From NCBI GenBank assembly GCA_949358305.1, contig OX442314.1, positions 2,604,001 through 2,668,000 on the forward strand: 64,000 nucleotides of DNA, in the 5' to 3' direction. This DNA is from Strigamia acuminata. Taxonomy: Eukaryota. How positions within the stretch are numbered: position 1 is the first letter of the stretch; every line of letters begins with the position of its first letter. The notes below the pieces were generated by a model, which was not told where the DNA came from, searched no databases, and saw only the letters and a list, made by a program, of their open reading frames with translations. Both the position numbers and the translations under genes were made by a program. Below, one piece after another: positions 1 through 32,970 of this stretch.

Positions 1-43
1 TTTACCAGAAGCGGAGAAAGCAGCGACCGCGAACCGTCTCAAG

Positions 44-706
44 TTGAGTGCGGAAAGATATGGGGCGACAGATAAGATTATGCGCCCTACTGAATATCTT
101 AGCGGTATAATGGAGCTGGCAGAAGCTAGCGTTGGTTTGCAAATAAAAAATAAACTGACATCCACGCTGCCTTCCAACCCTTTGGCCGCCCCTAAAAAGG
201 CACCGACAGCGTCAGCCATGCAAGCGACACTGGAGGAGGTCAAGGAGGGGGAGGAAGCCGGACAAGATGCCGGAAAATTAGACGAAAAAGAAGAAAAAGA
301 CGATTATTCGACGGACGAAGAAATACGAAGCTATCGCGATACCTTATCAACGGGTTGCGATGAGGAAGGACCGCTAGTACATCTCATCCATCGAGATAGA
401 GCGGTAGAAGAATTTCGCGCCAGGTTAAAACCAAATGCCGGCCGAATTCCGAAGTATTTTCGGAAAAATTACACGCCACCGTCGAAAGCAGACCCTGAAA
501 AGAAAAAATCGACTGAAGCCCCAAGAGACAAATCAAATATTCGCTGTTTCAAGTGTAACCAACCGGGCCACTACTCCAATGAGTGCCCAAGAACAGCGAA
601 AGAAGACGCTAAATTTGACGCAATAATGAAGCAAATGGCAGAGATTAAACTCGCCATGGCAAAAAACGAGTCAAAAAACGAGTCAGCGCAGGCGGCGAAG
701 AAATAA
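44..706 (+). CDS. gag: Gag C-terminal part (true start upstream of window)
   Basis: Zinc knuckle CFKCNQPGHYSNEC; lies directly upstream of pol. Confidence 0.88.
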   Translation: MSAERYGATDKIMRPTEYLSGIMELAEASVGLQIKNKLTSTLPSNPLAAPKKAPTASAMQATLEEVKEGEEAGQDAGKLDEKEEKDDYSTDEEIRSYRDTLSTGCDEEGPLVHLIHRDRAVEEFRARLKPNAGRIPKYFRKNYTPPSKADPEKKKSTEAPRDKSNIRCFKCNQPGHYSNECPRTAKEDAKFDAIMKQMAEIKLAMAKNESKNESAQAAKK

Positions 707-724
707 CTTCTCGACCGTCTGCGC
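661..724 (+). promoter_or_regulatory. -1 ribosomal frameshift signal at gag-pol junction
   Basis: AAAAAAC at 661-667 and 673-679 in gag phase; hairpin GCGCAGGCGG...CCGTCTGCGC at 686-724; -1 frame open into pol. Confidence 0.85.
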
Positions 725-729
725 CATTC

Positions 730-3700
730 ATGAAGAAGAAGGGGTTTAACAAAGGGTTCGATAAGCCGCCACCAGTCAAAGAAATGGGTAGTGACATAGC
801 TAACGCCCAAATTCAAGACAGGGCCAACAACGCTTTGCAGGTAATTACCGCAAACGCTGAGGCTGAGGCGGAAGAACCGAACCTACTGCTTGAAGAATTA
901 CCTCAAGTAGTCGAAGACACAGAAGAATTTCGTGTTTTCATGTGCAACGTGGCGGTCGAATACACCAACCGCCTATGTATGTTGCCCATGACAATAGAAC
1001 GTGAAAAAATTATGGGACTGCTAGACTCGGGAGCAGATCGCTCGTTCGTTTCCGAAGACATAGTAGCATCATTGGGTCTCACCGATAAGATAAAAGGCGT
1101 TAATAAAAATATACGTCTAAAAACCGCCAACGGAATGGCGCGTCCAAAAGGAGTTATATTATTGACCATGGAGTGGCTCGGAGGAGTAGAACAGCACCCT
1201 TTCCTGGTCCTGCCCACATGCGACAGAATTTTTCTGTTGGGCTTAGACCTCATGGCGTCAATGGAAATACAACCAAATCCAATAACGAAATCTTGGAATT
1301 ATATCAGAAATGATAAGGAAAGACCCGCAATTGTCGTGCCACCAGCTCTTGTAAAAGAAGCGGCCGACAAGACACAGGGGGAGAAAGGCCTAAAGAAATT
1401 CGTTCAAGACTACGATTTTAAAGCATTCGTAACAGAATTGCAACGGGACAATGTAGTGGAAACGCTTGTCGCCGACGCCGCTTTAGAATTAAACGAAGCG
1501 GCAGCCCTACGAAGGGTCCTACTTAAATATGAGGGGATCCTGTCGAAAAAACCGGGCCGAACGAATAAGGCTATTCACGAAATTAAATTGACGGATAATA
1601 AACCTATACGAGTTGCGTATAAGGGAATGAACCCGCAAAAACGTGAAATAGTGCAAAAAATGTGCCAAGAAATGCTAGACAGTGGCATTGTCTCCGAGGC
1701 CCAGGGAGAATACGCGACGCGAGTTGTACTCGTGATGCGCCCGGGCTCGGACCCACGCCTATGCATTGATTACCGCCCATTAAACGCGGTGACAGAGATA
1801 GATCCCATACAGATGCCGTCTATCGAATCCATTTTGAGAGAGCTTAGCCCCTTTTCTTGGGTTACGACGATGGATCTGTCGAAGGGGTACTGGCAAGTTG
1901 AGATGAGGCCAGAGGATAAGATAAAAACAGCATTTTACTCGCCAATTGGACGGTTGATGTTCAACGTCATGCCATTTGGTTTAGTGAATGCTCCCAGTAC
2001 CTTTCAGAGGCTAATCGAAAGCGTATTGGGTGATATCCTGCATCAGTTTGTATGGGCATACCTAGATGACATAGTTATTGCCTCTAAAACATTCGAAGAG
2101 CACATTGAGCACATCGACCAAGTGCTCACCCGGCTGGCAAAAGCTGGGTTACACGTGCATCCGGGCAAAAGCAAGTTCTGTCGAAAGGAGCTTGCCTTCC
2201 TGGGTTATCGCATTGGAGTCAATGGTTTAGCTATTGGCCCCGAAAAAATCGATGCGATTAATCGTTTCCCACCACCCGAGGACGTTAAAGGTGTCCAACG
2301 GTTTATGGGAATGATAAACTTCTTCGGCAGGTTGCTACTGGGTCTAGCTGAAGTGGCAGCCCCAGTTACCGACCTCCTGAAGAATGAAAACGAATTTGTA
2401 TGGTCAAATGAGTGCAACATCGCATTTAATGCGATAAAGAGGATGCTGACGGAAGTCGGCGTAATGCCTCTACCCGACCTAAACCGGCCGTTCATATTAC
2501 ATACGGACGCCAGCGGAGTTGGGTTGGGAGCCGCGTTGCTTCAAACACACGTGCGCGACGGAGTCGAACAAGACCTGCCGTGCATGTTTATAAGTCGCAA
2601 ACTCCAAGGCGCTGAAAAAAATTACAACGCCACAGAGTTGGAGTGTTTAGCCGTTGTGTGGGCCATAAGGAAATTCAGAGATTATCTCGAATATACCAAA
2701 TTTGTAGTCCACACAGATCATCAAGCGTTACAATGGCTGATGAAATTAAAGGAGCCAGCAGGTCGACTAGCCAGATGGCAGTTAGAACTGATGGCATGCG
2801 ACTTGACCATTCAATACAAGCCCGGCAAATATAACGTCGTGGCTGATGCTCTGTCACGGGCACCAGTGTCAGATCCTATCGACGCTGACGATGATGGCGA
2901 GGATGATTCCCGCATCATTTACTGCCCGACGAGTTGTCACCGTTGGGATTTAAGGAAGATGAATGAAATTCCCACCGCGTCTCCGGCAGATGTAAAATTC
3001 TGTGGATTTTGGACGCGGTTATACCAACCAGCTGCTGACAATTACCCAAATGCAAAGAAGGAATTTAAGCTAGAGCGGAGAATAAATGACCCGCTTCTAA
3101 GCGCCTTCCACGCTCATGTCGGCAAGCAGATGCAAAGCAATCCCCCGACAAGGGAGGAAATAATTGTGCAACAAAAATTAGACAAAAAATGTCAGGACAG
3201 AGCTAGATTCGTACTGACAGGAAAATATCCGCCCGACTTAACCAGAAGGCAGAAGCGTCGTTATGCGCACGAATCCATAGATTACCTATTGGATGACGGC
3301 CTTTTGGTGAAGCATCACCCAAATCACCAAGATGACTTGAGTGAATCGGACACCGCAGTAAAGGTAGTAATACCTGCTTCCTTAATCGGTCGCGTGCTGT
3401 GGTTGTTACACGGGCACCCGCTTGCGAGCCATGCGGGAGTAAGCAGAACACTCTATCGTGCTACACAGCTTTTTCACTGGACAGGGATGAAAAAAGATAT
3501 CGCTCTTTTTGTCCACCAATGTCAGCGATGTCAAGCGTGTAAGCCGAGGAGAAAATCACCATTCGAAACTATCTTCTTAGGGCCTTACGCGCCTTTTGAT
3601 TGTTTAAGTGTCGATGTGATGGGCCCAAAACCCGTTACGGGAAATAAAAATGCGTACATTATCGTAATAATGGACGTGGCGACTCGTTGGCCCGAGTTGT

Positions 3701-4800
3701 ACGCCGTCGCTAGACCTTCAGCAGAGAAAATCGTTGAATGTATCTACGACGTGGCGTTACGTTACGGATTTCCACGTAAAATAATATCCGATAACGGACC
3801 CCAATTTATCTCGAAAATTTGGGGTAAGTTTTGTGAGAAATTCGGGATTGTGGCGTCACATACCTCGACCTACAATCCCAGAACAAATCCCGTTGAGCGA
3901 CTCAACAGGGACATTAAATATGCACTAAGCATATTCACTGACATCCACAATAGGTGGGATGAATACTTGAGGGAGATCGCGTTCAGCATACGAACAACAG
4001 TCTCGAGGACGAGAGATTTTTCTCCGGCCTACCTCAACTTCGCCCGAGAGCTACGAGTGCCTTGGGACCCACGAGTGGCAGAGTCGGTAAATGTGGTGGA
4101 CCCAGAGAAACCACATGAGTATGTGTATAAATTGGAGCAAACAATTTCGAGCACATACAAACATATGATGGCGCACATTTTTAACATGCGCGACCGCATT
4201 TTACAAGATAAAAGCGGTGGAAAATTTGTGAATTTCGAGAACAATGATTTAGTGTGGAAGGACACACACATCCTCTCAAATGCAGCGAGAGGAATCACCG
4301 CCAGCTTGGCCGACAAGAGAGATGGTCCGTATGTGATCATCGGCAAGCATGGCGGTAACGCGTATAAATTACGCAAGCTCGAGGACAACACCGAGCATAA
4401 GTCGATACAAGTACGAGAGTTAACTCCGTACATTCCGGAATTCCCGCAAGAAATGTGGGCCAAAGGCCAAGTCAAGTCTAAAACTGACGGCCAAATCGTC
4501 GATATGTTCGCTGGCGAGTCGGAAAAAGCACCGCCAAGTGACAACGAGGAGTATTTCGACGCCCCTTCACCTCCGGTAAACGAGATAGTTGAATCCGTTC
4601 CGGATCCAATTTTGGTCGGGGGGGAAACAGGAGAAACTCCTGAAACAAACACAAAAAACACGGATAAAAAAGAAAACAATAATGAGGAGGTACAGACACA
4701 AAAAACAACAAAAAATATCGTACCTGCCTCGATCCGTAACCTGCGACCAAAAAGAGATAATCCGTTTATAAAAGGCGGAAAGGTCGTAGGAAAAAAGTAA
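730..4800 (+). CDS. pol: Pol polyprotein (protease, RT, RNase H, integrase)
   Basis: LLDSGA; DLSKGYWQ, MPFGL, YLDD; TDAS, ELE, TDH; HHCC zinc finger, DVMGP, SDNGPQF, VERLNR; GPY. Confidence 0.97.
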   Translation: MKKKGFNKGFDKPPPVKEMGSDIANAQIQDRANNALQVITANAEAEAEEPNLLLEELPQVVEDTEEFRVFMCNVAVEYTNRLCMLPMTIEREKIMGLLDSGADRSFVSEDIVASLGLTDKIKGVNKNIRLKTANGMARPKGVILLTMEWLGGVEQHPFLVLPTCDRIFLLGLDLMASMEIQPNPITKSWNYIRNDKERPAIVVPPALVKEAADKTQGEKGLKKFVQDYDFKAFVTELQRDNVVETLVADAALELNEAAALRRVLLKYEGILSKKPGRTNKAIHEIKLTDNKPIRVAYKGMNPQKREIVQKMCQEMLDSGIVSEAQGEYATRVVLVMRPGSDPRLCIDYRPLNAVTEIDPIQMPSIESILRELSPFSWVTTMDLSKGYWQVEMRPEDKIKTAFYSPIGRLMFNVMPFGLVNAPSTFQRLIESVLGDILHQFVWAYLDDIVIASKTFEEHIEHIDQVLTRLAKAGLHVHPGKSKFCRKELAFLGYRIGVNGLAIGPEKIDAINRFPPPEDVKGVQRFMGMINFFGRLLLGLAEVAAPVTDLLKNENEFVWSNECNIAFNAIKRMLTEVGVMPLPDLNRPFILHTDASGVGLGAALLQTHVRDGVEQDLPCMFISRKLQGAEKNYNATELECLAVVWAIRKFRDYLEYTKFVVHTDHQALQWLMKLKEPAGRLARWQLELMACDLTIQYKPGKYNVVADALSRAPVSDPIDADDDGEDDSRIIYCPTSCHRWDLRKMNEIPTASPADVKFCGFWTRLYQPAADNYPNAKKEFKLERRINDPLLSAFHAHVGKQMQSNPPTREEIIVQQKLDKKCQDRARFVLTGKYPPDLTRRQKRRYAHESIDYLLDDGLLVKHHPNHQDDLSESDTAVKVVIPASLIGRVLWLLHGHPLASHAGVSRTLYRATQLFHWTGMKKDIALFVHQCQRCQACKPRRKSPFETIFLGPYAPFDCLSVDVMGPKPVTGNKNAYIIVIMDVATRWPELYAVARPSAEKIVECIYDVALRYGFPRKIISDNGPQFISKIWGKFCEKFGIVASHTSTYNPRTNPVERLNRDIKYALSIFTDIHNRWDEYLREIAFSIRTTVSRTRDFSPAYLNFARELRVPWDPRVAESVNVVDPEKPHEYVYKLEQTISSTYKHMMAHIFNMRDRILQDKSGGKFVNFENNDLVWKDTHILSNAARGITASLADKRDGPYVIIGKHGGNAYKLRKLEDNTEHKSIQVRELTPYIPEFPQEMWAKGQVKSKTDGQIVDMFAGESEKAPPSDNEEYFDAPSPPVNEIVESVPDPILVGGETGETPETNTKNTDKKENNNEEVQTQKTTKNIVPASIRNLRPKRDNPFIKGGKVVGKK

Positions 4801-4939
4801 AATAAATTACGAGTCGATGGCGGCACTAAAAATAAATGTAATCGACCGATAGTGCAAGCCATCACGTCGCAGAAAATTTCGCTAAGTCCAACAAAGCGGA
4901 TATCGGTCGAATTCGCGTCACGAGATGGCGTGGAAACGC

Positions 4940-5100
4940 GGGACCCGTAGCAAAATTATCGGCACGGGTCGGATACCGCGTGCAAAAGACCCCGTAGCAG
5001 CAATCGCGCACGGGAGTGAAAACAAAAAAGACCCCGTAGCAGCAATCGCGCACGGGAGTGAGAACAAAGGAGACCCGTAGCGTAACATGCGCACGGGTAG
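4940..5100 (+). repeat. About 41-bp imperfect tandem repeats between pol and ORF3
   Basis: Repeated gacccc-gtagcagcaatcgcgcacgggagtga. Confidence 0.8.
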
Positions 5101-6243
5101 GTGCGCACTAGTCTCAAACACCCGGGTTCTGGAGTATATTACCCAGAATCCATCGCGATTACCTCGTGTTCACACGGACTTCCGCTTTTCACAGCTGATC
5201 GCTGCATTCGTGCGTGATCCTCGTTTTTAACGTTTTTACCGAGTTTTTTTTTAGATAGTTTTATCACCCTTTTTTCAATCGTGATTGAGCTTTTTGTGCG
5301 CGCTCCTCGCCATGGACGAGGAAGAGAACGACGTGCTGGCCATCGAGCACGAGGACGAGGAAAACTGGGACCGCGATGTAAACCAAGTCCAACCCGATCA
5401 GGTAGAAGTCGGCATCGGCACATGAGAATTATTTCCGTGCTGCTGAAAGAGAAATTTTGTTGACTAATACCTGACATGAGTGCTTTGCACTCGAAATAGC
5501 GTATAATTAATTATTAACCGCGATCGCTCACACGATCGTATTTTTTCCTTGTTAATTTGTTTTCGGGGTGCGAGCGCAGACTTCACGTCGCCTCGCGTCT
5601 CGAAAATTCCTCATGACTTGAGTCACGAGCGAGACAATGGGCTCGAGCCATAAATAATTTTATGACAAGGGGAGAATATTCTGTAAAAGAATATTTTTCT
5701 CCACAAGTAATTTGACGCATCAAATTGATGCAACTTAACATTCGTACGATGAATTTTTCGGTGTGTTGGATAAATTCAATTTGACTTTAACTTTTTTTAA
5801 AATGAGACAAAGTCCGACTTCGGAATAATTCTTTATTAGGTTTATTTATTTAATAAAATTTCGACAAGCACATTTATTGTGCAATTTTAGTAATAATTTA
5901 CACCCGACGAATTCTTTTTACGAATGACTGATAATTATTAATTTAATTATTAGTAATGTCCTAATTAATGTTAGAATTAATTTGAAGTAAAATCTGATGA
6001 TAAGAATCCAGATTAAAGGCTCGATTCCGTCTCGCTGTGCGTTTTGGACATGAGACAGATTTTTACGTGATGACTTCTCTTTTTCTATCCGACGAGGGAC
6101 AATTCGTCCTACGTTTGCACCGATAGACAGGAATCGGTCTCGACGGACGGCTGCACGTATCGGCAACGTCCCTCGAAACCAACCATTTATCTACGTATTT
6201 AATATTAACTTTTTATTAATCGTTTATTTCTCCACCCTTCCAG

Positions 6244-9009
6244 ATGGCATTACGTAAAACATGGGGACCATTAGACCCCGCTTGCATCACTCGTGGCGGG
6301 ATATTTCGAGGCGCGCTGCCCGATTTTTACCGACGATGTTTCGGCGAAGACGCCGACCCTTGGCGCCTGCGAATACTACATTCCCGATGCATCGCCCGAC
6401 GTTGGGTACGAGACTGCACGCTCCTGGATACGTTCCCGGAGGGAATGCGCGAAGGCATCGCCACAGAGTTAGCTCGTGACGATGACCCGAAATCGCCAAT
6501 TTTCCACCCCGGATTGTCAAGTCAGTACACTGGCAACCCGGCGGAGGAACACGTGCTGCATGCGTGGCGAGCAGCCGAGACAGAAGAGGCCCGTGAGGCC
6601 ATCTATCAGCATTATAGACAACAGCTGGTGGATACCGCTACGGCAGTGGCCGAGCGCATCCTCCAAAACGAGGGGATGACCGCGGATGATATTCATCTGT
6701 GGTTTGAGAGGCTGCGATTGGGAGAGAGTACGCCCCAGTGGAGACCTCGGATGGGAATTTTAACATCCCAAGCCGAGATGTGGCAGCTCCACTACCTGGG
6801 GATTTTGGGGCCCAAGAGCAGCTACCCGCGGAAGCGCAAGCGCTCCAAAGGCGCCGGGGACAGCCAGTCGCGTTCCCCAGCGACAACCAAGAAGCAGCGT
6901 GTCGCTCAAAACACGACTGAAGGCAACGAAGCTGGGCCATCCACTAGTACGGTGCGTGACCCTTCGCAGTATTCCCGACCGCTAATTTTCGTAAACCGTC
7001 AGATTAAAGACGGTAAGGAGTACAAGGAGGTTTGGATGTCTGGTGACGAAGAGCGAGTCTCTCGTCCCAGCACTTCTAGACGTCCGCTGACTCATCGCGA
7101 GCAGCGGAAAAAAGATCGCAAAGAGCAATACTTCGCGAGGTGCGAAGCTCGGGGCCGTCCCATCCCCGAACCCGCCTACGTCTCCAAGAGAGCGGGTCGA
7201 CGAAGTGGTAGCCAGTCAGGTGAGCGAAGCGTCCCAGCGGCAGATACGCGGGACCTTCGCGAGATTCTGACTCAGATGAAGCGGACGAAACTGACACGTT
7301 TCGATCCCGCGATGAAACACGCCAGGAAGATGGGTGTTGTCACCGACGGGAAGGTGACCCCACACGAGGTGGCAAGGTGGCTCGCAGACTACATAAATTC
7401 GCGACCACGACCCGATGGCATGCCAACCGCCATCGTGCAGCCTTCGGGCTCCGGACAACATCTCCCGGCGCCCCAAGTCGCAATGACTAGGGTGCAGACG
7501 ACGGAGACGCCACCACCGCCGACGCAGCCAACACCACCGCTGCCGACGCCAACGCTGCCGACCAAGACGCAGCCGCCTCCGAACCTGCCGCTGCCGTCGT
7601 TGTTGAATTCGAGCGATCCGCCGGATTTACTCACCGACCGCTCAGTCCTTCTCCCCGTCGGACAGAGCATTATGCAGGAATGTCGAGCCAATTTGACCGA
7701 CATTTACAGGCCGAGCCGACCCCGACCCGGTTCCTCGGCCCTGTTCTTCGAGAGGCGAGACGAAGAAGCGCGACTCGCGAGAGAAGCCGCCAACCCGACT
7801 ATCTCCGAGCTCTCAGCGTTTCGCTTCGTGATGGAAGACCCAAGAGTCTCCGCACCCGCCTTGCGAGGTGTGGATCAAGCCCAGCGATATTTCATCGAAT
7901 GGGCAACGGCGATGATGAGTAAGCTCTCGTGTGCCTTCACTGCGGATTCGGAGCGATCGAATCCAGTGAATCGTCGCAGCCTACAGCTATCATTGACCAA
8001 GGTCATGATGCAGCTGCTAACCCCAGCACTCTTCGGAGAAGGGCGTCAGGCGATGGCCGCATGGTCTGTCGTGGACAGAGAGGGTGTACAGGTTCCCCGT
8101 GCACTCCTCGCAGAGTGGAGCTCCATTCTGCCCGACCCTGTGTTGACTCGGTACGAGCTAACCAGGGATGTGGTAAACCCCGAATTTGAGGGGTACAAGT
8201 TGCGAAGCACGGCGTTTCGCTATACCTCCGCCACCTGGACAGCGGCGCCTACCCAACAACTGCGCGCCTTGACCATCCAGACGGAAGAATCGGCAGAGGA
8301 TGTAGAAATGGTGATCTCGCCGACGAGCGGAGTTCCGATTCCGCCACCGATGCCTGCGGAGATATCCCCGCAAGGACCCGCCCTGTTCGAAGTGGCGGGT
8401 AAGCCAAAGCGCTTACTGTGCCGAACGCCACCCGTCAGGTCCGTCGAGCAAACGAAGCCGACACCGCCCGGGACCCCACCGGCCCGAGCGGCGACAACGA
8501 CGCAAGCCGTGATTCCCGCGGCCACCCAGAAGCCGAAGCCGGCACCGCCTCCACCAGACTATTACGGGCGAATCATCGAAGAGTTTCCCCATCTTTCGAT
8601 GACAACGGCGACCAGGAGGTTTATCCTCGCACAACGGGATAAAGGCAAATCAGTCTTCATCTGGCTTCACAACCAGATCCGGAAGACTAGAGACCTCATC
8701 TTCCACCAGAGGTTGCTGAGAGCCCACCGTGTGCCAGTGACGCCAGCGGAAGCCAATGCCATCCGGCATACGAACACCGGCTTCTCCGCCTACATCCCGA
8801 GCGTTTGGTTACACGAGAGGACGCGTGCCCCGCATGAGCCAGTTGACGGCCATGCATTATGCTTCATTACGGAGCATGAGGACCCCCGAGATCGGTCCTC
8901 GGCGTTAGTAGGCGATCTACCCGCGCCACCCGGCACTCAACCGCCTGTCCCTGGAGTGAGTTACGCCCAGGTGACGGACTCAGTGTCGGGTCCCCCAGGA
9001 AAGAAGTGA
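6244..9009 (+). CDS. ORF3 of the Gypsy element, 921 aa, Pro/Arg-rich, function unknown
   Basis: Long intact ORF between pol and the PPT; pyrimidine tract plus CAG directly before the ATG; basic clusters RKRKRSK and KKQR. Confidence 0.8.
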   Translation: MALRKTWGPLDPACITRGGIFRGALPDFYRRCFGEDADPWRLRILHSRCIARRWVRDCTLLDTFPEGMREGIATELARDDDPKSPIFHPGLSSQYTGNPAEEHVLHAWRAAETEEAREAIYQHYRQQLVDTATAVAERILQNEGMTADDIHLWFERLRLGESTPQWRPRMGILTSQAEMWQLHYLGILGPKSSYPRKRKRSKGAGDSQSRSPATTKKQRVAQNTTEGNEAGPSTSTVRDPSQYSRPLIFVNRQIKDGKEYKEVWMSGDEERVSRPSTSRRPLTHREQRKKDRKEQYFARCEARGRPIPEPAYVSKRAGRRSGSQSGERSVPAADTRDLREILTQMKRTKLTRFDPAMKHARKMGVVTDGKVTPHEVARWLADYINSRPRPDGMPTAIVQPSGSGQHLPAPQVAMTRVQTTETPPPPTQPTPPLPTPTLPTKTQPPPNLPLPSLLNSSDPPDLLTDRSVLLPVGQSIMQECRANLTDIYRPSRPRPGSSALFFERRDEEARLAREAANPTISELSAFRFVMEDPRVSAPALRGVDQAQRYFIEWATAMMSKLSCAFTADSERSNPVNRRSLQLSLTKVMMQLLTPALFGEGRQAMAAWSVVDREGVQVPRALLAEWSSILPDPVLTRYELTRDVVNPEFEGYKLRSTAFRYTSATWTAAPTQQLRALTIQTEESAEDVEMVISPTSGVPIPPPMPAEISPQGPALFEVAGKPKRLLCRTPPVRSVEQTKPTPPGTPPARAATTTQAVIPAATQKPKPAPPPPDYYGRIIEEFPHLSMTTATRRFILAQRDKGKSVFIWLHNQIRKTRDLIFHQRLLRAHRVPVTPAEANAIRHTNTGFSAYIPSVWLHERTRAPHEPVDGHALCFITEHEDPRDRSSALVGDLPAPPGTQPPVPGVSYAQVTDSVSGPPGKK

Positions 9010-9045
9010 TCGCTCAGCCCCACGGTCTGAGCTCGGAGGGGGAAG

Positions 9046-10061
9046 TGTTGTGACCCGACTGGACCGGGGTCAACGAAGAGTTTCTCTCGTGACCTCGTTT
9101 CGGGTGTAAGGGGAGCCGCAAGCGCGTCTCCCTTCCCTCAGTGCATTGACATCTAGTCAATGGACAGGCGTCTGCCCTGAGGGAGTGGGGATGGCTCGTC
9201 CACCCCACCATTGGGTGATTCCGGTCACCTGTCAACCCCGCTTTGTGCAAAGAAATGTGCCTTGCACTGAGCGGGCAGAACCAACACAACCATCAAACGA
9301 GAAACACACGTAAACCCGTCGTCCTACAAGATCAGGCCCAAGTAAATATACTGGGATTGACCAAGGACAAAGGACAATTTACCGTGAGTACGTTTGGTCA
9401 GTGTCAAACTCCGCAGAGTAACCTGCGAGATAAGATTACCACACTATTTTAGCACACCAGCTAGAAATAGTAAAAACCACTCCAGTTTAGCGAGTTGTGC
9501 AGACAAACGGTCGCACAAGCCTAAACTGCAGTAAAACCACGACGAGCGTTCCCGCCGCTGTGTGACCGCCGGGAGCCAGAAGAGTCCGCCGCTGTGTGAT
9601 CGCCGGACACCACACAAAAACCTAGACAACAGCCCGAAGTAAGCCTTTTAACTAAGCATTCACTCGCGCCCGACCAGCGTGAGCCCGAAGGACCAGCCAG
9701 AGACGAGCCGAGGACGCCATATTGCCACGCCGGCCCAAGACGACATCGCGTTGCCACAACGAGGACGCCATCTTGGACGCGAACGAAACAAAGGACGACC
9801 TCGCCGATTCCAGCCAGCTTTCATCATACCTTTACATTTCCATTTCCCTTCACCCATTCCGATTTACCTTTTACCTACCTTTCATATATATATATAAGAT
9901 ATATCTGTATATTGTCCCACAGAATAAATCTATATTATATTTTACCTTTTATATCTGTGTAATCATTTCTTTGGGTAAACCGCTTGAGACAAAGCGGTAG
10001 TGAGTTAGTCGAATTAAGTAATCAACCCACGAGTTAGCGACGGTTAGAGTTGAGCGCGACA
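9046..10061 (+). repeat. 3' LTR of about 1.0 kb
   Basis: Follows PPT GGAGGGGGAAG; TGTTGTG...CGCGACA ends; AATAAA near 9923; host-derived sequence resumes at 10062. Confidence 0.72.
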
Positions 10062-10062
10062 C

Positions 10063-10421
10063 AAGGTATTGTACGAGGAAGAGCTGAACGTGCCGCTCGG
10101 GCTCTTCAACGAGGTGCTGGACCGCATCTTTCGGCAGTCGCAGGGTCAGTTATTGGTCGCTTGGATCAACGCGCTCACTGTGCTTCGGATCAAGGTACAC
10201 GACCGAGGACTTGGACGACGATTAGCGGCAAGTGCTGCACCGCACCGGCTGCAAGGACGAGAAGATTTGCTTCGTGATGGGCTCGAGTTTTCTCGAGCGA
10301 ATGAATACGCTGCTGGCGAACGGCGAAGTGGCCGGCCTGTTTGAGGGCGACGGACGACATCAAGGACGACGTGAGGGAGAAGATGCGGAGCAGATATTTG
10401 GATAATCCGGAGTACAACTTT
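10063..10421 (+). pseudogene. DYNC1H1: Internally deleted fragment of cytoplasmic dynein heavy chain (AAA4 plus microtubule-binding domain piece)
   Basis: [112 protein letters not shown]; stop and frameshifts. Confidence 0.88.
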
Positions 10422-10681: not shown

Positions 10682-11470
10682 ATGGCGGCCAAAGGGACGG
10701 GCATGTGCGACTCGAAAGAAATAAGCGTGAAGCGACCGAGTGTTAAAGAAACGGATCAAGATTTATTGGCAGAACAAGAGAAATTTCTGACTAGTCATCC
10801 GGTTGCGTTGGCGAGTATTGTGAAGAAGAAAATCGAAGAAACGAAAGAAAGTTTGACCAAAATCAACGATAATGACTATAAAATCGGTTTGTTTTGAATA
10901 ATTCCTCGGTTTGATCGTGTTTTTTAAAATAATTTTTGTTATTAATTTTATCAGGCAACGACGAGAGATTTTTAATTTTGGCTGATAATTGTCGTAAGAT
11001 TTTTCACTTTAAAGTGTATATTTACTTCAAAAAGCGCCGAACATCACGTCGATAACATGAGGTTTTCCCGTCGTGCCAAAACTAACCAAAGCACAGGTGA
11101 ATTTCAATTTTATACCTCCAAAACATCCTTTTACGTATTCCAGTAGTGTTATGAATGCAAATTTCTGGTTCATCTCAGAACTAACCTGGGTTGAAACGTA
11201 ATTGGTATTCACAACCAAACTGGAATCGGTATTTTTGTATTCATCTTGTTTACAGTTTATAAATTATTTTAGTTGCAAGGTTCGTCCAAAAGAAGCTTGT
11301 TTGCTACGCAACTCGCAAATAAGAAACAAAAAGTCAACCTGATGAAAGAAAATGAATCCACAAATATAGAAAACAAGTTTGGTAACAAATTAATTCTTTT
11401 CGCACGGATAAAATAATAATATTAGAAAAATTGTATTTTATTTTTATAGGCGAAGAGAGTTTCGTTGTGG
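10682..11470 (+). pseudogene. RPAP1: 5' exons of RNA polymerase II-associated protein 1, truncated
   Basis: KRPSVKETDQDLLAEQEKFL, GFPVVP and KRSLFATQL in successive short exons; TGA at 11058 just before GFP; no later exons recognisable. Confidence 0.72.
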
Positions 11471-11479
11471 AATATCTTA

Positions 11480-12160
11480 CATTGGCTTTGGTGGGTTTTT
11501 GTGATTATGAGTTAATTTTTGGTGGTTTTGTGTGAGATTGAGTTGATTTTTAGTGATTTTGAGTGATTTGTGGTGATTTTGAGTTGATTTTTGGTGATTT
11601 TGAGTGATTTCTGGTGATTTTGAGTTGCTTGTGAATTGGTTTTTTTACGACTTTGTATTGATTTTTGTTCGTTTTTGTAGGTTTTGCAGCAGCAGGTGTT
11701 GTTGGAGCAGCAGATAACGGAGGAGGAGTAGTTGTCGCAGTGGCAGCAGGAAGCAACAGGACGAACAGCGCCAGATTGAACAGCAGTTGATCGCTCAGCA
11801 GCAGATGATGGAGGAGAAACAGAGCAAGGATGAGGAGTTGTTCCGGTTGCAGGAGAAGGCGTCGATGATGGTGAAACAATAAGCGCAGATCCAGCAGCAG
11901 ATGATACTCGAGAAACAACCGATACGATTGATACACTCTCAAATGGTGATGCATCAATTAATTTTTATTTTTTAATTTTTGATTTTTTTCAAATTATTTC
12001 GACTCATTTTAAAATCTTTCTAATTTTTTTCAATTTTTTTTATACTTATCTCAACTTATTTTATATTTTTTCGACTTATTTTAACTTATTTTAATTATTT
12101 CCACTTATTTCTCATTTTTTCCACTTATTTCAAACTTTTTTCGATTGACTTAAAATTTTT
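11480..12160. repeat. Low-complexity tracts, possibly transposon-derived
   Basis: Iterated tggtgattttgagt 10-mers, CAG/GAG-rich stretch, ttatttt repeats. Confidence 0.5.
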
Positions 12161-13399
12161 ATTACTCCGTAATTTTCTACCATAAATATTTATTCGTTTT
12201 TCTACGACGAGATATGCAAGACCCAAGATATGGATAACTTGCACGTATTGCTCAAAGATTTTTATCGACCAATTTCGCAATTGGCTCCCCAACAGTTTTG
12301 AAATTTTAATTCATCACTTGTTCCCACCAGTGCCGCTCTGCGCTCTGGTGGGAACAAGTGTTATTAACCATCTGATTCCTACCAATAGCGATGCATTTTT
12401 CGTCGCATAGCAACAGTCACGTGGTTGTGTTGTACGTTCCATTTCGCGCTTGGAGTCGTGCATTTTCGCTTCGTTTTCGCTTCGTTTTCGGTTCGGTTTG
12501 ATATTTTCCACAACGTCCATGCGTTTTTCGATCGTGTTTATGTCCAAGTAATAACTGGATTAACATTGGATTTTGACGGATGGTTTGGTACGAGTTAATA
12601 TCGAATTTAATTTTTTTGTTTCACGTTCCATTTTTCATTTTCGAATGCAAATTTCCTTTCTAATTTCTTTATTTACCTTGCTTTTCTATTTGTCAAACAT
12701 ACATATTTAGTGTGCACTACATTTGTGAATAAGCATCTTGAAATTTTAGATTCCATTTTAAGCCTAACCTTAATATAATTGAAATGTAAGTTGAAGGACA
12801 ACATATACATGGGTGACAAATGATTTGGTGTTTTAAGCCTGCATTTCATTACCAATATCTTTAGTTTAAAAATGCATTTGTCACTCCAGAATTAATGTTG
12901 TGATTCTATACTTCGTGGGGGTGTAAAATCCAACTCTCTACCTCCTTGTGGTCACCCCTGGGTCACGCTAAAAGAGCTCTGGTTGAAATAATGTTGGTAT
13001 TTGTAAGAGAGTAGCATTTACCAATTGTCCTGAATTTTGCTGTTTGAATTGCTTATCCACTACAATAATTCCACTTAATTGTTTTCTTGTCTTTTCCTTA
13101 TCTAAATGGTCACTTGGAAAACTCCCTTTTCTTTTGCTGTTTCTTGAATTCAAAATTGCCAAAATCCTTTTCCTTTGATTTGTGTCAAGATGCGATGACA
13201 GTTGCTGCTGAAGTTGTAGTTGCAGTTGTTGCTTTTGAAAATGATGGCCTAAAGATAACATCATCGTGTTTTAATCAATGCGAGAAATACATCTCAAGCA
13301 GGTGGTTGAAACCGAACTCATTTCTAGCTCAAAATGAAAATAGTAGATCATCAACATATCCAAAATGTAGCCTGATGCTGATTGATGAGTGTGCTTAGT

Positions 13400-14420
13400 T
13401 TTGATTCCTCCTTTAAATTCTCCATTGCAAATTCTTTATACAATGTACCTTTCCAAATTCGCCTTATTTGTGGTCTTTTTTGTTTTCTAACTGGATCAGC
13501 ACAAAGGCCATCTATTTGGTCTTTGCACCCTTTATACACCTTCACTCGGTTTGTGTGTTTGGATTGAGATGTGCTTGGCTAGCTCGACCGTTTTGGCGAT
13601 CAGATTACTTCACCTTGTAGTGAATTATTATATTATAATTACTGTACAGTTCTGTCAAACACTTGTACTGTAAATTTGATTAGTCTTGTAGTGGCTTGAT
13701 AATAACTAGCGGTATTTTAATTTCCAATTTCCAATAATTCAATATCTTTCAGCTTCTGTCCTTTTTAATTAGCAATTCAATACGACGACCCATTGAAAAA
13801 TTAAATAATTAATTTGTTCTATTTTTAAAAGAACTGGTTTTATTGCCCTTTTTTAAGCTTTCCCATTCAGATATTGGAATTTTGGCTGATACTATTTTTA
13901 AGTGACGTAGCAAAGTCAGCCCACTCATGAAGTGAAATTGGAATACTGAACCTCCTACTGAATACAAACAACAAAATACCTGCTAATTCTAACTTCAATC
14001 AGCAAAAAATCAGTGGTGTTCACTGAAATTTAAAATTAATAAATAAATATAGAAGCCGCTTCTGGGATGTAGCCGCAAGTTCGTCTGGTGGCTCTAGCAA
14101 ATGACCTGATTACTTCGTTCTCTTCCATGGTGTAAACGTGATGTCTTCGTTTGGTTAAAGCGTAGGATAGAACTAAAAAACTAAAAATGTTGCACACAAT
14201 TTTTTCCAATTTAAGTAATAACCTATATTTACGGCACCTAAGTGTCGACGGTTTTGGGAATAATAAGGTGAACGCTGCCATTTGGAGCAGCATCAGTTGT
14301 GAGTCTAAAATCCACTTTATTTCGGTTCCTTCCGAACATTGCAGCATGTCCTCAATGCAGCAAGTGCACTTTACCAATTTGCCTTCATCTTTGGCTGCTG
14401 CAATCTGCATCCCGCACTCC
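13400..14420 (-). pseudogene. Possible degraded RNF216/TRIAD3-like RBR E3 ligase
   Basis: KDEGKLVKCTCC-IEDMLQCSEG, EENEVIR..CGY, SEG and CKDQIDG-LCADP in the order expected for RNF216, with large deletions. Confidence 0.4.
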
Positions 14421-16479
14421 GCAAGAATAATTTAACAAAAGGAGAAGAAAAATAATGGCAAGGCATTTCGACATCGATCTTTGGATGTTGTGTTTTGAAG
14501 TTAAATAATTGGTTGTTGTTGTTGTGAGATGTTCATTCATTTGTTGTAGTATAAAAATACCTTTCAACAAATTTCCATGAGTTTGCTAGTTCATCTGTTC
14601 TATTGAAATATTGTTCTTGCTTATTATGGTCTCACTTTTTGGTTTATCGCTGATGTTTAACAAATTAAATTTTTAAAAAAATGACCGAAAATCGGCTGAA
14701 ATTCTTACCTCGCAGGCCGTATGCCTTTCCATACTGCAAATTTAAAATCAAACTTTTGGCTTGCCATTGTGTGATATCAGTACTAAAAAAAAAATACATT
14801 TATTCAGTCGCCAAGAATTAAACTCAATTTAGTCCTACCTAACGGAAAAACAAGACGATCTATTTTGCCGAAAAGATTGAAAAGAAAAAGAAAGAAAGAA
14901 CGCTCGTGGTGTCATGCCATCTGCAAATGGAAGCATAACAATCCTCTAACACTTTTTTTATAAGTATATTGGTCTATGAAACCCTTAATTTAATGTTGTG
15001 GACCGATACACATACAGGAAACCATCCCCAAGCCATTTTACTGTTGGGCTGGCTTAGTTCAAAGCTTTTTCCTCTGCCTCCTTTTGTTGGCCAGTAGATT
15101 TGGGTGCTCGATGTTTCGGTTGTCTTAGTTCTTCCCCGTGCAAATTTTTACGTATTTATATATCTGAATTAGAGTAGTGACTTTGCCAACATTTGTGACC
15201 TTAATCGCGAGCAGAATAAGTTTTAATACTTCAAATAACTCGTAAAACCACACGGTTTTCGCACGAAATTCGCGTCATTGGTTTCACTGCTTGTTCTTGT
15301 TCATGCAAATAATAGGCTTTCTGATGGGCGTCTTTTTGGTTCTAACACCCAACTTGCAAATAATTGCGAGCAAAGTAGGCACCGTTCTTGTTTTTCGTTC
15401 GGTATACAAGGACGACCGATGGCAATGATGATGGCTGCAATGATGATGCACTTCATAATGACTGAAATAAAGGAGATGGCAATTACCACGAGGTCATTTG
15501 ACTGATAAAAATGAGCAATTTACCTTCTTTTACGTGAAACTTGTGGTGCCGGCGTCCATCCTTGCCAAATCAGTACAATTAATCTATTAAGGAAGTCTCT
15601 GCTTTTTTTGTTCAGATTCATACAGCCTTTTACTTTTGGCTTCAGATATTTTAGAATGCTGCTTGTTTACAAAACCGATTTATTCTTGATAATTTCTTTG
15701 GTCCTACAAAACATTTTTTTCATAAAAACTCCTAGAAAAATGTGAAAACTGGCGTTTTACTGTTCACATTCCCTTTAATGTGTTGATTTTATTTGTTATT
15801 TTGTATTTTTATCCTACATTTAATATTTGTGTGTTTTTACTTCCTTTGATGTAATATTTCAGTGTTATTCATTTCATTTTATATTTCCTAACTTGATAAC
15901 TTTGCATTGGTGTTTGTGTATTTTTTATTCAATTATTCTAGTATTTTAATGTCATTTTATTTGATTTATATATTTTGATTTGGATATATTCCTTTTAATG
16001 TTCTATCATTTATTATTCTGTGAAATTCAATTTAATATTTGTATTCAATTTTAACATGTTTATCTTTCACATTTTGGTGTCATTAACCTTTTATTTAAAG
16101 AGGGTTTGATTATTGTCACATGACCTGGCTTCAGCTCTCCTTCTAGGAATGCAGCTGAAGCCAATTATCGGATTAGTGGTGCTCCAATAGGAGCGTTTTG
16201 TATATATCTTTTTGAAGACAATAAAGTTTAACCCCAGTGAGTGTACAAAATTCATGGTGGAAGCAAGCTGCAGATTTATTTAAAACATACACTTAAAATT
16301 ACAAAGAAGCCAGAGACTTTAGAAGACCAACTAAAAGCGATTGGAATCTACAAAAAAGATTATACAAAATCTCATCCGTTAAGGTTGATGTTGATAGGAG
16401 GGGACATAAAAATATATGATCGTGAACGCAACTATCGGGACGATGAATTTGATGAATCGTTCGAACATGGCTTGATTTA

Positions 16480-16930
16480 AACCGAAAATAGTTTTTTTCG
16501 GAGTTTTGTAGCAATATATCAGACACTTCGTCGTCTACATTTATAATACATATATTGTCCATTAAAGCATCTTTGTGCTAAACAAGAAGAAAAAAATAGA
16601 AAAAAAACTACAGGTGACCCTCAATCTACAAACATATATATAAATATATAAATATTACTTTAATTTACTTGGTGGTGCAATTTCTGCTTTTCGAACTCCA
16701 GCCTTTTTGTGATCGGCATGGAGAACACATTCGTCGTGTCAACGGTGGCTGCGGTTGCAGATTTGGAAAATTTCACGGCCGGTTTCTGTTTTAAAAAACA
16801 AAAACTTATATAATGAAATAATTGAAGGAATTTAATTGATGGGACTTTGGTGAGCAAAGTAGGCTTCACTTTGTTCTTCATTTTACTAGGTGCGCCAATC
16901 GCCGAATCCTACGTTGGATGGTGGCAGTGA
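16480..16930. repeat. Dispersed repeat; further copies at about 17730-18020 and 25140-25573
   Basis: Shared gggactttggtgagcaaagtaggcttcactttgttctt...gccgaatc..acgttggatgg and atatcagacacttcgtcgtctacattt blocks. Confidence 0.85.
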
Positions 16931-17537
16931 TGATGGACACAGTGATGCATTTCGTAATGGTTTCTATAATGTAGTAATTTGACTGATAAAAATGACCCTA
17001 AAATGAGCAGTTTGCCTTATTAAAAATAGTTTTAATTAACTTGATAGTTTTGTTAGTTTAAAACCAATTATAAGTGTTTACAATCCAAATGTAAAAAGAT
17101 AGCTAAGCTTACAATACTGCCGACATCACTTAGCAATTGAGGTGATGGATACGCTTGTATCTCGGTTATGGTCTGAATGAAACTGTCTGCTAAATTTCAC
17201 CTCCACAACTGTGTAAAACTCGTAATCCAATTTTACATCATGCACAGAAATTTGGTTAAAAAAAATTTGCACAAAGTCATTTGCATCTACATCGTTTTTG
17301 ATTCGAGTCATAATTGTTTAAAAACATGAAATGGACTCGAGTAATGTCTTGTGTAGTGTTGCAATCTGGCAAAGCAGATGTTGGCATGTAAGGCAAGCTG
17401 AAACAAGCAGTTGTTGGATCAAAATGATTTGTCAAATACGGTGTTACAAGTACCTGATGCAATTAATCATTTGATATAAATTATTCTGCGTGCAAGCAGA
17501 TCGACACTTTGCATAAGCATCTGTACTACTTGTAGAA

Positions 17538-17604
17538 TAAGCACACAAATGGTAATTGAAAGCTTTTTCTCCAGTATGGGTTAATAAATGTTTTTTTAAA
17601 GACC
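17538..17604 (-). pseudogene. C2H2 zinc-finger gene fragment
   Basis: SLKKHLLTHTGEKAFNYHLCA with TGEK linker. Confidence 0.65.
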
Positions 17605-18822
17605 ATTTTGACTGCAGATTTCGAAAATTTGCAAAGCTCTTAAATAACTAATTACACTCAAAAGTAACCTACAGAACCTTTTTTATTAAAAAATGTGAAT
17701 TTTCGAAGCGGCGCTAGGTGTAATCGGCTCGTTTTACGCTTCTTGGACCAAGAACAGTGTCGGGGCAAAGATGGCTGCGGTTGCAAATTTGGCAAATTTC
17801 ACCTCCGGTTGGAGTTTCTGTTTTAAAAAACAAAAAATTATATAATAAAATAATTGAAGGAATTTAATTAATGGGACTTTGGTGAGCAAAGTAGGCTTCA
17901 CTTTGTTCTTCAGTTTAGTAAGTGCGCCCATCGCCGAATCCCACGTTGGATGGCGATCACAGTGATGGTGGACTTGAGTGTGGTAATGGTTTCTGTAATG
18001 TAGTAATTTGACTGATAAAAATGAGGGTCACTACTAAACAAGGGGTACACCCCAAATGGGGTACCCTATTTGGGGTGCACTATCAATTGGCCCTGCCAAA
18101 TGAGTATAATCAATATTGGACTGCAGCTGATCAGACTCAGTGCAAGGGGTTTGGAATATGTTCAGCAGCCATCTTGGATCATGTAGTGGGTTTTCATAAT
18201 TGTATTCTAAGTATGAATGCTTTCCAACCTTGCTCATCTGAATTAATCCCATTTGAAGTGGCTGAGTTGATTCTCTCTCATAGAATCAATCCACGGTGAA
18301 GTGGTCTGCTGAAGAATAATTTATTTATTATTTTATTATAATTCATGTTGTCCTGGCTTTCTGCCATGTTTCTACAAGTAGAGCTGCTTTGTCCAGAATC
18401 AATCACAGAAATGAACAGAATGTTAAAGAAATGTTGCTTTATTATGCTGCTCTATTATGATGAAATCTCGCCCATTCTAATGTAAGCATTTTCTGGTGTT
18501 TGAGGTGGGTGTTTTTTTTATTTCTCGATTTGTAAATCCAGCAATAATGCAAGACAGCGTAATACAGTTGTGTACAGACTGTGTTCTTTCATATTTTATT
18601 TATTCATCAATTATTGCTTGCAGCATTATTAGCATCACTATTGCTTGACTTCCGTTATAAATAATGGTGCAACATATGACTTACCTACTTAAAACTTTAA
18701 ATGTCTTTCGGGTCTTGCACAAAATTAAAAATTTCGGCATTATCTCGATCTCAACCACCACACTATTGATCAGACGGGTATTTCGAACGTTACCTGTAGT
18801 TTTTTGTTTTGTATAAGCACTA

Positions 18823-26138: not shown

Positions 26139-26262
26139 TTAATTAATTAATTAATAAATAAAAAAATTCCTAAAAGTATGTTTCATTCTTAATCAATTTT
26201 CCTTTTTTTTTAAAATTTATTTTTCTTTTATATAAAAAAGAATAATGATTTAGATTCATTCT

Positions 26263-30288: not shown

Positions 30289-30304
30289 TATGACGATGGT
30301 TAGT

Positions 30305-31945: not shown

Positions 31946-31979
31946 TTTTTTAATAGAAGGGAAAAAAACTATTTTTTAA

Positions 31980-32339
31980 TTATTTTTTTTCTTCTTTCCT
32001 CCATTTTTTTAAAACATATAAGCACAAATGGCCGCAAGTAATTTCGTCAAAATTTTGATACTGATTGTAATTGTATTTTATGTTGTCTCCCAGATAATCG
32101 TATAATTCCAACGGGGGTGGCAAGTCTCCGAAACTATCGAAGTACAGCTTCTTATTTCCAATTTTACTGTATGCCACCCAATGACTTCCGCTTTCGTGGT
32201 GCGTGTTCAAATTAACAATTCCACATTCTTTCGATCGTGGTTTGACGGGTAAAGTATCTCTCGAAAACACTCCTCTAAAAAATGAAATTTTCATTCGTCT
32301 GGCCAGTTCCTCCAACTGCAACGAATCTAGCGGTTTTAT
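31980..32339 (-). CDS. Adenain-like cysteine protease 1 (no ATG at the expected start)
   Basis: FRGVFSRD, VNLN..GSHWV, YFDSFG, Q..CGHLC; frame extends upstream as IKPLDSLQLEE. Confidence 0.9.
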   Translation of the reverse strand: MKPLDSLQLEELARRMKISFFRGVFSRDTLPVKPRSKECGIVNLNTHHESGSHWVAYSKIGNKKLYFDSFGDLPPPLELYDYLGDNIKYNYNQYQNFDEITCGHLCLYVLKKWRKEEKK

Positions 32340-32803
32340 TTTTTTGTCACCAGTGAGCCGTAAGGTTTCAAGTAAAAACCTTTTCCAGACTTGCGTTTCC
32401 GCGATTTTTTTTTTGCGAATTGCATTCCTTTACCTTCTGAAACTGCATTATGACGTTTTGTCTCATCGAGCATTCTCTTGTTGGTTTTTGCCTCATCGAC
32501 AGCTTTGGCAATTCCTGCCGCACCGCCAGCGAGACCGCCTAAAGCCCCCAATAGTGGAAGTAATAAAGGGAAAAATCCGCCAGATTGTTTAATTTGATTC
32601 GAAGGTATACTCAAAGTCATGCCTTTCTTTTTAGAACCGGCTTTTTTGATCTTGTTTATTTGTCTATCCGTAAGAGACAAGCCATGATTGCCGTTTAATT
32701 GTTCGTATTTCAATCTTAAATGCAAGGGTATCTTTTTTTTGACAGACTTGGATATTTTTCGTTGTTGATTCGGAGATAGATTCACTTTATGTATCTTATA
32801 CAT
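32336..32803 (-). CDS. Basic core protein with Gly-rich hydrophobic, possibly membrane-active segment
   Basis: Lys-rich; QSGGFFPLLLPLLGALGGLAGGAAGIAKAV..ETKRHN as seen in Polinton core proteins. Confidence 0.75.
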   Translation of the reverse strand: MYKIHKVNLSPNQQRKISKSVKKKIPLHLRLKYEQLNGNHGLSLTDRQINKIKKAGSKKKGMTLSIPSNQIKQSGGFFPLLLPLLGALGGLAGGAAGIAKAVDEAKTNKRMLDETKRHNAVSEGKGMQFAKKKSRKRKSGKGFYLKPYGSLVTKK

Positions 32804-32809
32804 TTTTAT

Positions 32810-32970
32810 TTCTTTTTTTATATACGTATATATTATTTTATATATATTTATTTATATATATTATATATTATATATTATATATATTATATATATATTATAT
32901 ATATATATATATTATATATATATTATATATTATATATATTTATATATATTTTATATACGTATATATTATT
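32810..32970. repeat. Degenerate (TA)n microsatellite
   Basis: Almost pure A/T alternation. Confidence 0.9.

What the first reader, a model, noticed from the sequence alone, without database searches (positions are those of the whole stretch)
5312..9009. Gypsy element with a large non-Env ORF3, probably spliced to a hidden acidic exon
Seen: a 921-aa intact ORF in the env position with no evident signal peptide or TM anchor, but NLS-like basic clusters, Pro-rich linkers and roughly three globular-looking blocks. A strong acceptor (tttctccacccttccag) abuts its ATG. Upstream, gccATGG at 5312 encodes MDEEENDVLAIEHEDEENWDRDVNQVQPDQ followed by GT at 5402, which would splice in phase 0; this donor is weak. 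Inference: an element-encoded nuclear regulator, such as a transactivator or anti-silencing factor.
Basis: partly seen in the sequence, partly recalled or inferred. Interest (0 to 1): 0.75.

Follow-up and report, generated by a model that had tools for sequence, protein, structure and literature searches.

The report
Retrotransposon's large orphan nuclear-type gene
A multi-copy jumping gene in an invertebrate carries, where retroviruses keep their envelope gene, an intact and conserved 921-codon gene with no relative in the databases searched; it is likely spliced to a short acidic upstream exon and may regulate how the element's own RNA is spliced and exported from the nucleus.

Summary
A Ty3/gypsy element (gag, -1 frameshifted pol, PPT, 1,018-bp 3' LTR) carries an intact 921-aa ORF3 at 6244-9009. 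It has no hydrophobic segment (best 19-residue hydropathy 1.07) and no hit among 1.84 billion cluster representatives, Pfam, PHROGs or PDB. It is a real gene of the element. Among contigs of two public runs (one study), 17 of 29 listed ORF3 variants are synonymous (expected 25-30%; p about 0.001), 0 of 12 listed indels fall in coding DNA, a sister family at about 80% identity keeps the frame, and another contig joins the ORF3 end to the LTR. The splice is inferred, not seen. It is supported by the element's best-scoring acceptor directly before the ATG, a phase-0 donor, divergent contigs that align across the donor, and a new finding: the donor lies in the most stable hairpin of 61 donor-like sites. 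Function is unproven. Best guess: a nuclear regulator of the element's RNA, working like CERV of C. elegans Cer1 but with no detected homology; a transactivator is the main rival. Non-Env ORF3s are a known kind; this is an unusually large orphan variant.

The parts
2..706 (+). 3' part of gag with CCHC zinc knuckle; the 5' part and 5' LTR lie before the window
   Evidence: zf-CCHC E 9e-7
661..679 (+). two A_AAA_AAC slippery heptamers in the gag frame; predicted -1 frameshift into pol
   Evidence: heptamer rule from established knowledge
649..4800 (+). intact pol ORF, 1,383 aa stop to stop: protease, RT, RNase H, integrase, weak SH3-like tail (gypsy domain order)
   Evidence: best RT/RH relatives about 45% identical
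4767..4774 (+). TATAAAAG, the only TATAWAWR match outside the LTR; possible internal promoter (weak, chance about 0.16 per kb). AATAAA follows at 4801 and 4831
4984..5097 (+). three tandem copies of a 24-42-nt repeat, within a structured stretch (4960-5200, z -3.9)
5172..5194 (+). second-best acceptor-like site in 4800-6400; could join an LTR-derived leader to the acidic exon (inferred)
5312..5401 (+). predicted first coding exon: strong-context ATG, 30 codons, net charge -12
   Evidence: divergent contigs align from 5342 onward
5398..5474 (+). predicted RNA hairpin pairing the donor (5398-5404 with 5468-5474); 28 pairs, 4 of them G-U
   Evidence: z -4.6 on +, -2.8 on -; lowest z of 61 donor-like sites
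5402..6243 (+). predicted 842-nt GT-AG intron; its 5' half is an array of hairpins (5395-5780, z -6.55) with no listed substitution in 5402-5803
6221..6243 (+). polypyrimidine tract and CAG acceptor, after an AG-free zone of about 110 nt (previous AG at 6129)
6244..9009 (+). ORF3, 921 aa (951 aa if spliced): helical blocks, basic region, Pro-rich linkers, no membrane segment, no detected homologue
9035..9045 (+). polypurine tract
   Evidence: sequence
9046..10063 (+). 3' LTR, TG...CA, with a TATA-like run at 9885-9898, AATAAA at 9923 and donor-like GTGAGT at 9384 and 10000
   Evidence: summed contig depth falls several-hundred-fold beyond 10063

Best explanation
ORF3 is an intact, selected accessory gene of a multi-copy Ty3/gypsy retrotransposon with no membrane segment, likely made as a 951-aa protein from a spliced RNA (acidic exon 5312-5401 joined to 6244), and it probably acts in the nucleus as a Rev/CERV-like regulator of the element's own RNA. 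Proposed steps: (1) the hairpin at 5398-5474 would hide the donor from U1 and so keep most transcripts unspliced as genomic and gag-pol RNA; (2) a minority would splice to the strong acceptor and be exported by the normal route; (3) the protein would enter the nucleus through its KRKR cluster; (4) its Arg-rich middle region would bind the hairpin array in the intron, which only unspliced RNA carries, and license its export or protect it. Shown: intact gene, selection, linkage to the LTR, no hydrophobic segment. Predicted: hairpins. Inferred: splicing (about 0.7), nuclear location (about 0.65), RNA-export role.
For: Selection: 17 synonymous and 12 non-synonymous of 29 listed ORF3 variants against an expected synonymous share of 0.25-0.30 (p 1e-4 to 1.5e-3, pN/pS 0.24-0.31); read in the two shifted frames only 4 and 5 of 29 are synonymous. 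Worst case with all 5 hidden rows non-synonymous: p 0.001-0.013. 0 of 12 listed indel rows (15 in all) lie in ORF3 or 5312-5425 (worst case p 5e-5). A 1,219-nt contig at 79-83% identity matches aa 300-364, 407-435, 497-537 and 591-636, with offsets that differ by 12 and 0 nt. A divergent contig runs from 8904 to 9094, across the ORF3 end, PPT and LTR start. Splice: best acceptor of 671 AG sites; the ORF's own ATG has C at -3 whereas 5312 is gccATGG; a divergent contig aligns up to 5183 and again from 5342 for 98 nt or more, across the donor. In one single-contig loose end over 5367-5396, 7 of 10 third positions but 6 of 20 first/second positions differ, without a gap (by-eye count; p 0.045). 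The donor hairpin has the lowest z of 61 donor-like sites and pairing probability 1.0; the two indels inside it (5448, 5450) fall in its unpaired bulge. Precedents: CERV (PMC10309623, sections read) and donor attenuation by RNA structure in MLV (PMC2794156, abstract only).
Against: Nothing here measures function or location; the RNA-export role rests on analogy and architecture. No homology to CERV, Rev or any RNA-binding family was detected, and ORF3 lacks CERV's cysteine cluster (9 scattered Cys). The donor is ordinary by consensus (8 of 73 sites score as well). Within the family the exon has the highest variant density (5 in 90 nt) and 3 of the 5 are non-synonymous. The whole element is more structured than host DNA (mean window z -1.5 to -2.5 against -0.35 and -1.0), and over the intron both strands fold equally well (-2.18 and -2.10), so the hairpin array need not be an RNA signal; one hairpin (6120-6200) is better on the minus strand. 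Regions were chosen after looking. NES-like, PPxY and PxVxL matches exist but are common by chance. An acidic N-terminus plus NLS plus Pro-rich linkers fits a transcription factor as well. Both runs come from one study and may include the window's own source.
Confidence: 0.36

Rival explanations
1. ORF3 is a transcriptional transactivator of the LTR or an internal promoter, like foamy virus Tas. The acidic exon would be the activation domain, a helical block would bind DNA, and the intergenic repeats or palindromes would be its sites.
For: Exon net charge -12 in 30 aa with W, L, I and V; KRKR cluster; Pro-rich linkers. TATAAAAG at 4767 and tandem repeats at 4984-5097 upstream of the exon. Palindromes fold on both strands. 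Internal promoters are described for Tas/Bet (PMC8003144, passages) and Tor env (PMC4402516, passages).
Against: No DNA-binding family is recognised. The TATA match arises by chance about 16% of the time per kb. It does not explain why the donor itself is base-paired, in a hairpin that is more stable on the sense strand.
Confidence: 0.25
2. ORF3 is an anti-silencing or anti-restriction factor (a piRNA/RNAi or chromatin antagonist) that recruits host proteins through motifs in its Pro-rich linkers.
For: Large, linker-rich, fast-changing orphan in a family that appears to have reached high copy number (single contigs at depth 11,000-18,600 against 87 on the flank in run X2). Bet is a spliced two-part accessory protein that counters restriction (PMC8003144).
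Against: No motif beyond chance. Within-family variation shows purifying, not positive, selection. It does not account for the donor hairpin.
Confidence: 0.15
3. ORF3 is a cytoplasmic or particle-associated protein (RNA granule scaffold, assembly or trafficking factor), and the upstream frame is a 37-aa uORF or a localisation tag rather than an activation domain.
For: Arg- and Pro-rich low-complexity linkers and one PPxY at aa 770. The unspliced 5312 frame is a complete 37-aa ORF.
Against: It has a classical KRKR cluster. A strong acceptor directly before the ATG argues for splicing.
Confidence: 0.17
4. ORF3 is a highly diverged Env/fusogen, or belongs to a nested or passively captured sequence.
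For: It sits in the env position behind an acceptor. GC at fourfold sites is higher than in pol (0.635 against 0.505), which suggests a separate origin.
Against: No segment exceeds hydropathy 1.07, there are only 9 Cys and 3 N-glycosylation sequons, and no R-X-K/R-R site. No terminal repeats flank the ORF. It ends 25 nt before the PPT, is joined to the LTR in a divergent family, and is under purifying selection.
Confidence: 0.05

Closest known systems
CERV of C. elegans Cer1 (Ty3/gypsy; PMC10309623; abstract, introduction and sections 9 and 15 read)
   Same: [quoted passage not shown]
   Different: CERV is 517 aa, its first exons share the gag frame, it has a Cys loop and a G-protein-like domain, and Cer1 has no stop between gag and pol. 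Here the protein is 921/951 aa, the predicted first exon is a separate acidic frame between pol and ORF3, gag and pol are frameshifted, there is no Cys cluster, and no sequence similarity was detected.
Non-env ORF3s of bdelloid Juno/Vesta elements (PMC5408684; abstract and part 1 of 2 of Results read) and sense additional ORFs of plant LTR elements (PMC7264820; main text read)
   Same: Family-specific extra ORF in the env position, kept in the copies.
   Different: Those are recognisable enzymes (DEDDy, GDSL) or TM-bearing proteins; this one has no recognised domain and no TM segment.
Foamy virus Tas/Bet (PMC8003144; passages)
   Same: Accessory genes just before the 3' LTR; Bet is a short upstream frame spliced to a larger downstream ORF.
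   Different: Those are retroviruses with env and a proven internal promoter; no homology detected; an internal promoter here is only a weak candidate.
MDG1-group sORF1/sORF2 of Drosophila (bioRxiv 10.1101/2025.03.14.642691; passages)
   Same: Accessory ORFs of animal gypsy elements; sORF1 shows nuclear staining.
   Different: They are about 110 and 70 aa and lie upstream of gag; sORF2 is a membrane protein.

Membership tests
Ty3/gypsy LTR retrotransposon | pol order protease-RT-RNase H-integrase | tested here: met
Ty3/gypsy LTR retrotransposon | gag upstream of pol; PPT next to a TG...CA LTR | tested here: met
   zf-CCHC; PPT 9035-9045 and LTR 9046-10063
Ty3/gypsy LTR retrotransposon | two matching LTRs, PBS and target-site duplication | not testable with these tools
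   the 5' end lies outside the window and no genome is held
Ty3/gypsy LTR retrotransposon | assignment to a named clade by an RT tree | not tested
   best hits are about 45% identical and carry no clade labels
Env / viral fusion glycoprotein | C-terminal TM anchor and hydrophobic signal or fusion peptide | tested here: not met
   best 19-aa hydropathy 1.07; dedicated predictors were not available
Env / viral fusion glycoprotein | furin site R-X-K/R-R | tested here: not met
   no match
Env / viral fusion glycoprotein | fusion-protein fold | tested here: inconclusive
   single-sequence models have pLDDT 40 and 49
CERV (Cer1) | [quoted passage not shown] | tested here: met
CERV (Cer1) | made from a spliced mRNA | tested here: inconclusive
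   signals and conservation support it; the junction could not be tested
CERV (Cer1) | upstream exons in the gag frame | not testable with these tools
   the 5' part of gag is outside the window; the candidate exon here lies after pol
CERV (Cer1) | Cys-rich loop (possible C4 zinc finger) | tested here: not met
   9 Cys at aa 14, 32, 49, 58, 300, 480, 563, 726 and 873, none close together
CERV (Cer1) | sequence homology or G-protein-like domain | tested here: inconclusive
   no phmmer hit, but whether CERV is in that library was not checked; models are low-confidence
CERV (Cer1) | nuclear, and required for genomic RNA export | not testable with these tools
   needs experiment
Nested independent element | own terminal repeats or TSD, and absence from sister elements | tested here: not met
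   no flanking repeats; a divergent contig joins the ORF3 end to the LTR

The most novel reading that the evidence does not exclude
An invertebrate gypsy lineage evolved, independently of lentiviruses and of Cer1, a complete Rev/RRE-type switch: a 951-aa orphan nuclear protein, made by splicing from a donor locked in a hairpin, binds a hairpin array in its own intron and so controls the balance between spliced and full-length element RNA.
Probability: 0.25. Interest if true: 0.8.

Novelty: new variant of a known kind. Interest (0 to 1): 0.55.

Why it matters
How LTR retrotransposons export intron-containing genomic RNA and avoid host silencing is poorly known; in the searches run here (listings) CERV was the only element-encoded export factor that came up for an animal gypsy element. 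A second, apparently unrelated, much larger protein in the same position, paired with a defined hairpin over its splice donor, would suggest that complex-retrovirus-style regulation arose more than once in retrotransposons, and it gives a clear test. If it is a transactivator or silencing antagonist instead, it is still a new protein family. Orphan ORF3s as such are not rare (PMC5408684, PMC7264820, and unchecked notes of this scan), which limits the score.

Tried and rejected
Homologue searches of ORF3 found nothing: 5.8-billion set, near length (7,994 candidates scored) and shorter (7,999); 'longer' was not searched. Also blank: phmmer over 1.84 billion representatives (0 hits); exact look-up; ESM Atlas, whole protein and aa 460-680; Pfam, whole and six pieces (best E 0.047); PHROGs (best E 0.036); PDB sequences (best E 0.2); viral and metagenome contigs for ORF3 and for pol. 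A SWIB-like look of aa 373-385, recalled from memory, was not supported. Fold searches gave nothing usable: full model against PDB (no E <= 0.001) and BFVD (one E 2e-5 row with TM 0.05 and rmsd 54, disregarded); aa 1-195 against PDB representatives (best Z 4.5) and BFVD. The middle and C-terminal blocks were not folded alone, so an unknown fold is not established. No RNA holder listed, so the lack of a 5401/6244 joint says nothing. Summed contig depth is lower over ORF3 than over pol, but the tool says depth cannot rank parts, so it was not used. Rfam: one chance row (E 0.24). No tRNA genes. NES, PPxY and PxVxL motif matches were set aside as chance-level. A second single-contig codon-position count, in ORF3 at 7315-7344, was 6 of 10 against 6 of 20 (p 0.12, not significant). 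An Osvaldo-clade identity (recalled) could not be tested; the paper search gave one listing. No paper supplements were read; those of the bioRxiv preprint are closed.
Full report
Context. The window starts inside the gag gene of a plus-strand Ty3/gypsy element. Gag ends at 706 with a CCHC knuckle; pol (649-4800) is intact, in the -1 frame, with two A_AAA_AAC heptamers at 661 and 673, and has protease, RT, RNase H and integrase in gypsy order. After a 1.44-kb spacer comes ORF3 (6244-9009), a polypurine tract (9035-9045) and a TG...CA LTR (9046-10063). The host is AT-rich DNA with a fragmented P450 gene, a Polinton and a second gypsy element; I read it as an invertebrate (inference). No genome is held, so the 5' LTR cannot be seen.

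The observation. All sequence facts in the finding check out. A 921-codon ORF is far beyond chance (longest 338 in 1,000 shuffles). The best 19-residue hydropathy is 1.07, with 9 scattered cysteines and no furin site, so it is not an Env by sequence. AlphaFold2 without an alignment gives helical blocks separated by basic and Pro-rich linkers, at low confidence (pLDDT 40; 49 for aa 1-195).

Is it a real gene of the element? Yes. Two public runs of one study hold the element as contigs; they may include the window's own source and are not independent support for the assembly. They cover the unique flank and contain records up to 37 kb, so I read them as genomic DNA. Single element contigs have depths of 11,000-18,600 against 87 on the flank in run X2, which suggests many copies, although the tool warns that depth is not a copy number. 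One search listed 40 of 45 substitution rows for 5050-9060; 29 lie in ORF3, 17 synonymous, 12 non-synonymous, none a stop. The neutral expectation is 25-30% synonymous (p 1e-4 to 1.5e-3; pN/pS about 0.3); in the shifted frames only 4 and 5 are synonymous. The result survives counting all 5 hidden rows against it (p up to 0.013) or dropping one cluster of 8 rows (11 of 21, p up to 0.03). None of 12 listed indel rows (of 15) lies in ORF3 or the upstream frame, which together make up 72% of the stretch; indels do favour homopolymer runs in non-coding DNA, so this test is lenient. A sister family is present: a 1,219-nt contig at 79-83% identity matches four blocks between 7141 and 8149 with offsets differing by 12 and 0 nt (two gap letters inside the first block cancel out), and another divergent contig runs across the ORF3 end, PPT and LTR start (8904-9094). 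A nested or passive insert is therefore rejected. The higher GC at fourfold sites (0.635 against 0.505 in pol) hints at a separate origin.

What is it related to? Nothing found. phmmer over 1.84 billion cluster representatives returned no hit; the word-indexed searches, Pfam, PHROGs, PDB, the Atlas and the fold searches were also blank or at chance level. The models are too weak to exclude a known fold.

The splice. It could not be tested directly. For it: the acceptor at 6243 has the best crude score of 671 AG sites and follows an AG-free zone of about 110 nt; the ORF's own ATG has a poor -3 base whereas 5312 is gccATGG; the donor is in phase 0. A divergent contig aligns up to 5183 and again from 5342 for at least 98 nt, across the donor, and others begin to align at 5366, 5392 and 5397, so the DNA around and just after the donor is conserved between families. 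In one single-contig loose end over 5367-5396, 7 of 10 third codon positions but 6 of 20 other positions differ from the window, with no gap (by-eye count; p 0.045), as expected of coding DNA. Against it: the donor is average by consensus (8 of 73 sites score as well); 3 of 5 within-family exon variants are non-synonymous; and the frame could be a 37-aa uORF. I put the splice at about 0.7.

The donor lies in a 28-pair hairpin (5398-5474; z -4.6 on the sense strand, -2.8 on the other; 4 G-U pairs). Among 61 donor-like GT sites in the element it has the lowest z and pairing probability 1.0. No substitution is listed in 5402-5803 (0 of 40 rows in 10% of the stretch; p 0.015), and the two indels within the hairpin fall in its unpaired bulge. 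The hairpin opens a structured array (5395-5780; z -6.55). Caveats: the regions were picked after looking; the whole element is more structured than host DNA; and over the intron both strands fold equally well. Attenuation of a retroviral donor by RNA structure is documented for MLV (PMC2794156, abstract).

Mechanism. An LTR element with a strong internal acceptor must keep most of its RNA unspliced and export it. I propose that the hairpin throttles the donor, that the spliced minority makes a 951-aa acidic-headed, NLS-bearing protein, and that this protein binds the intronic hairpin array, present only in unspliced RNA, and licenses its export. [quoted passage not shown] The functional step is analogy only (0.36). 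Rivals are a transactivator (0.25; acidic exon, TATA match at 4767, tandem repeats), a cytoplasmic scaffold (0.17), an anti-silencing factor (0.15), and Env or a nested element (0.05).

Membership and novelty. The element is a Ty3/gypsy retrotransposon. ORF3 is not an Env by the tested sequence features and should not be filed as CERV (no Cys loop, different exon source, no detected similarity), though it may work like it. Non-env ORF3s are known in rotifers and plants (PMC5408684, PMC7264820), and this scan holds unchecked notes of other orphan gypsy ORF3s, none matching this sequence. What is distinctive is its size, its orphan status, and the conserved hairpin-enclosed donor. Verdict: new variant of a known kind; interest 0.55.

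Noticed in passing
window 49597-54388 (-): A second, complete gypsy element with two identical 171-bp LTRs, a single gag-pol ORF of 1,381 aa and no ORF3; a very recent insertion.
   Followed up: partly
window 26254-38837: Polinton/Maverick-type element: protein-primed DNA polymerase B with an Endonuclease VII-like match, double jelly-roll capsid, A32-type ATPase and an integrase with a chromodomain.
   Followed up: partly
window 4801 and 4831: Two AATAAA signals directly after the pol stop; if used, they would end transcripts before ORF3 and the 3' LTR. AATAAA is frequent in this element, so chance is likely.
   Followed up: no
window 6120-6200: A hairpin upstream of the acceptor that is more stable on the minus strand (z -5.7) than on the plus strand (z -3.0).
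   Followed up: no
window 4801-6243: The spacer between pol and ORF3 is CpG-rich (observed/expected 1.73 against 0.81 in host DNA).
   Followed up: no
window 10064-10400: The flank at the insertion site resembles a decayed dynein heavy chain fragment with deletions (recalled resemblance; one 32-aa piece gave no Pfam hit; contigs show a joint at 10155-10195).
   Followed up: partly
window 48244-49141 (-): Cytochrome P450 coding pieces next to the second gypsy element.
   Followed up: partly
window 4450-4800: Pol ends in an acidic, low-complexity tail of about 115 aa after the SH3-like domain, closing with a basic end; no chromodomain match.
   Followed up: no
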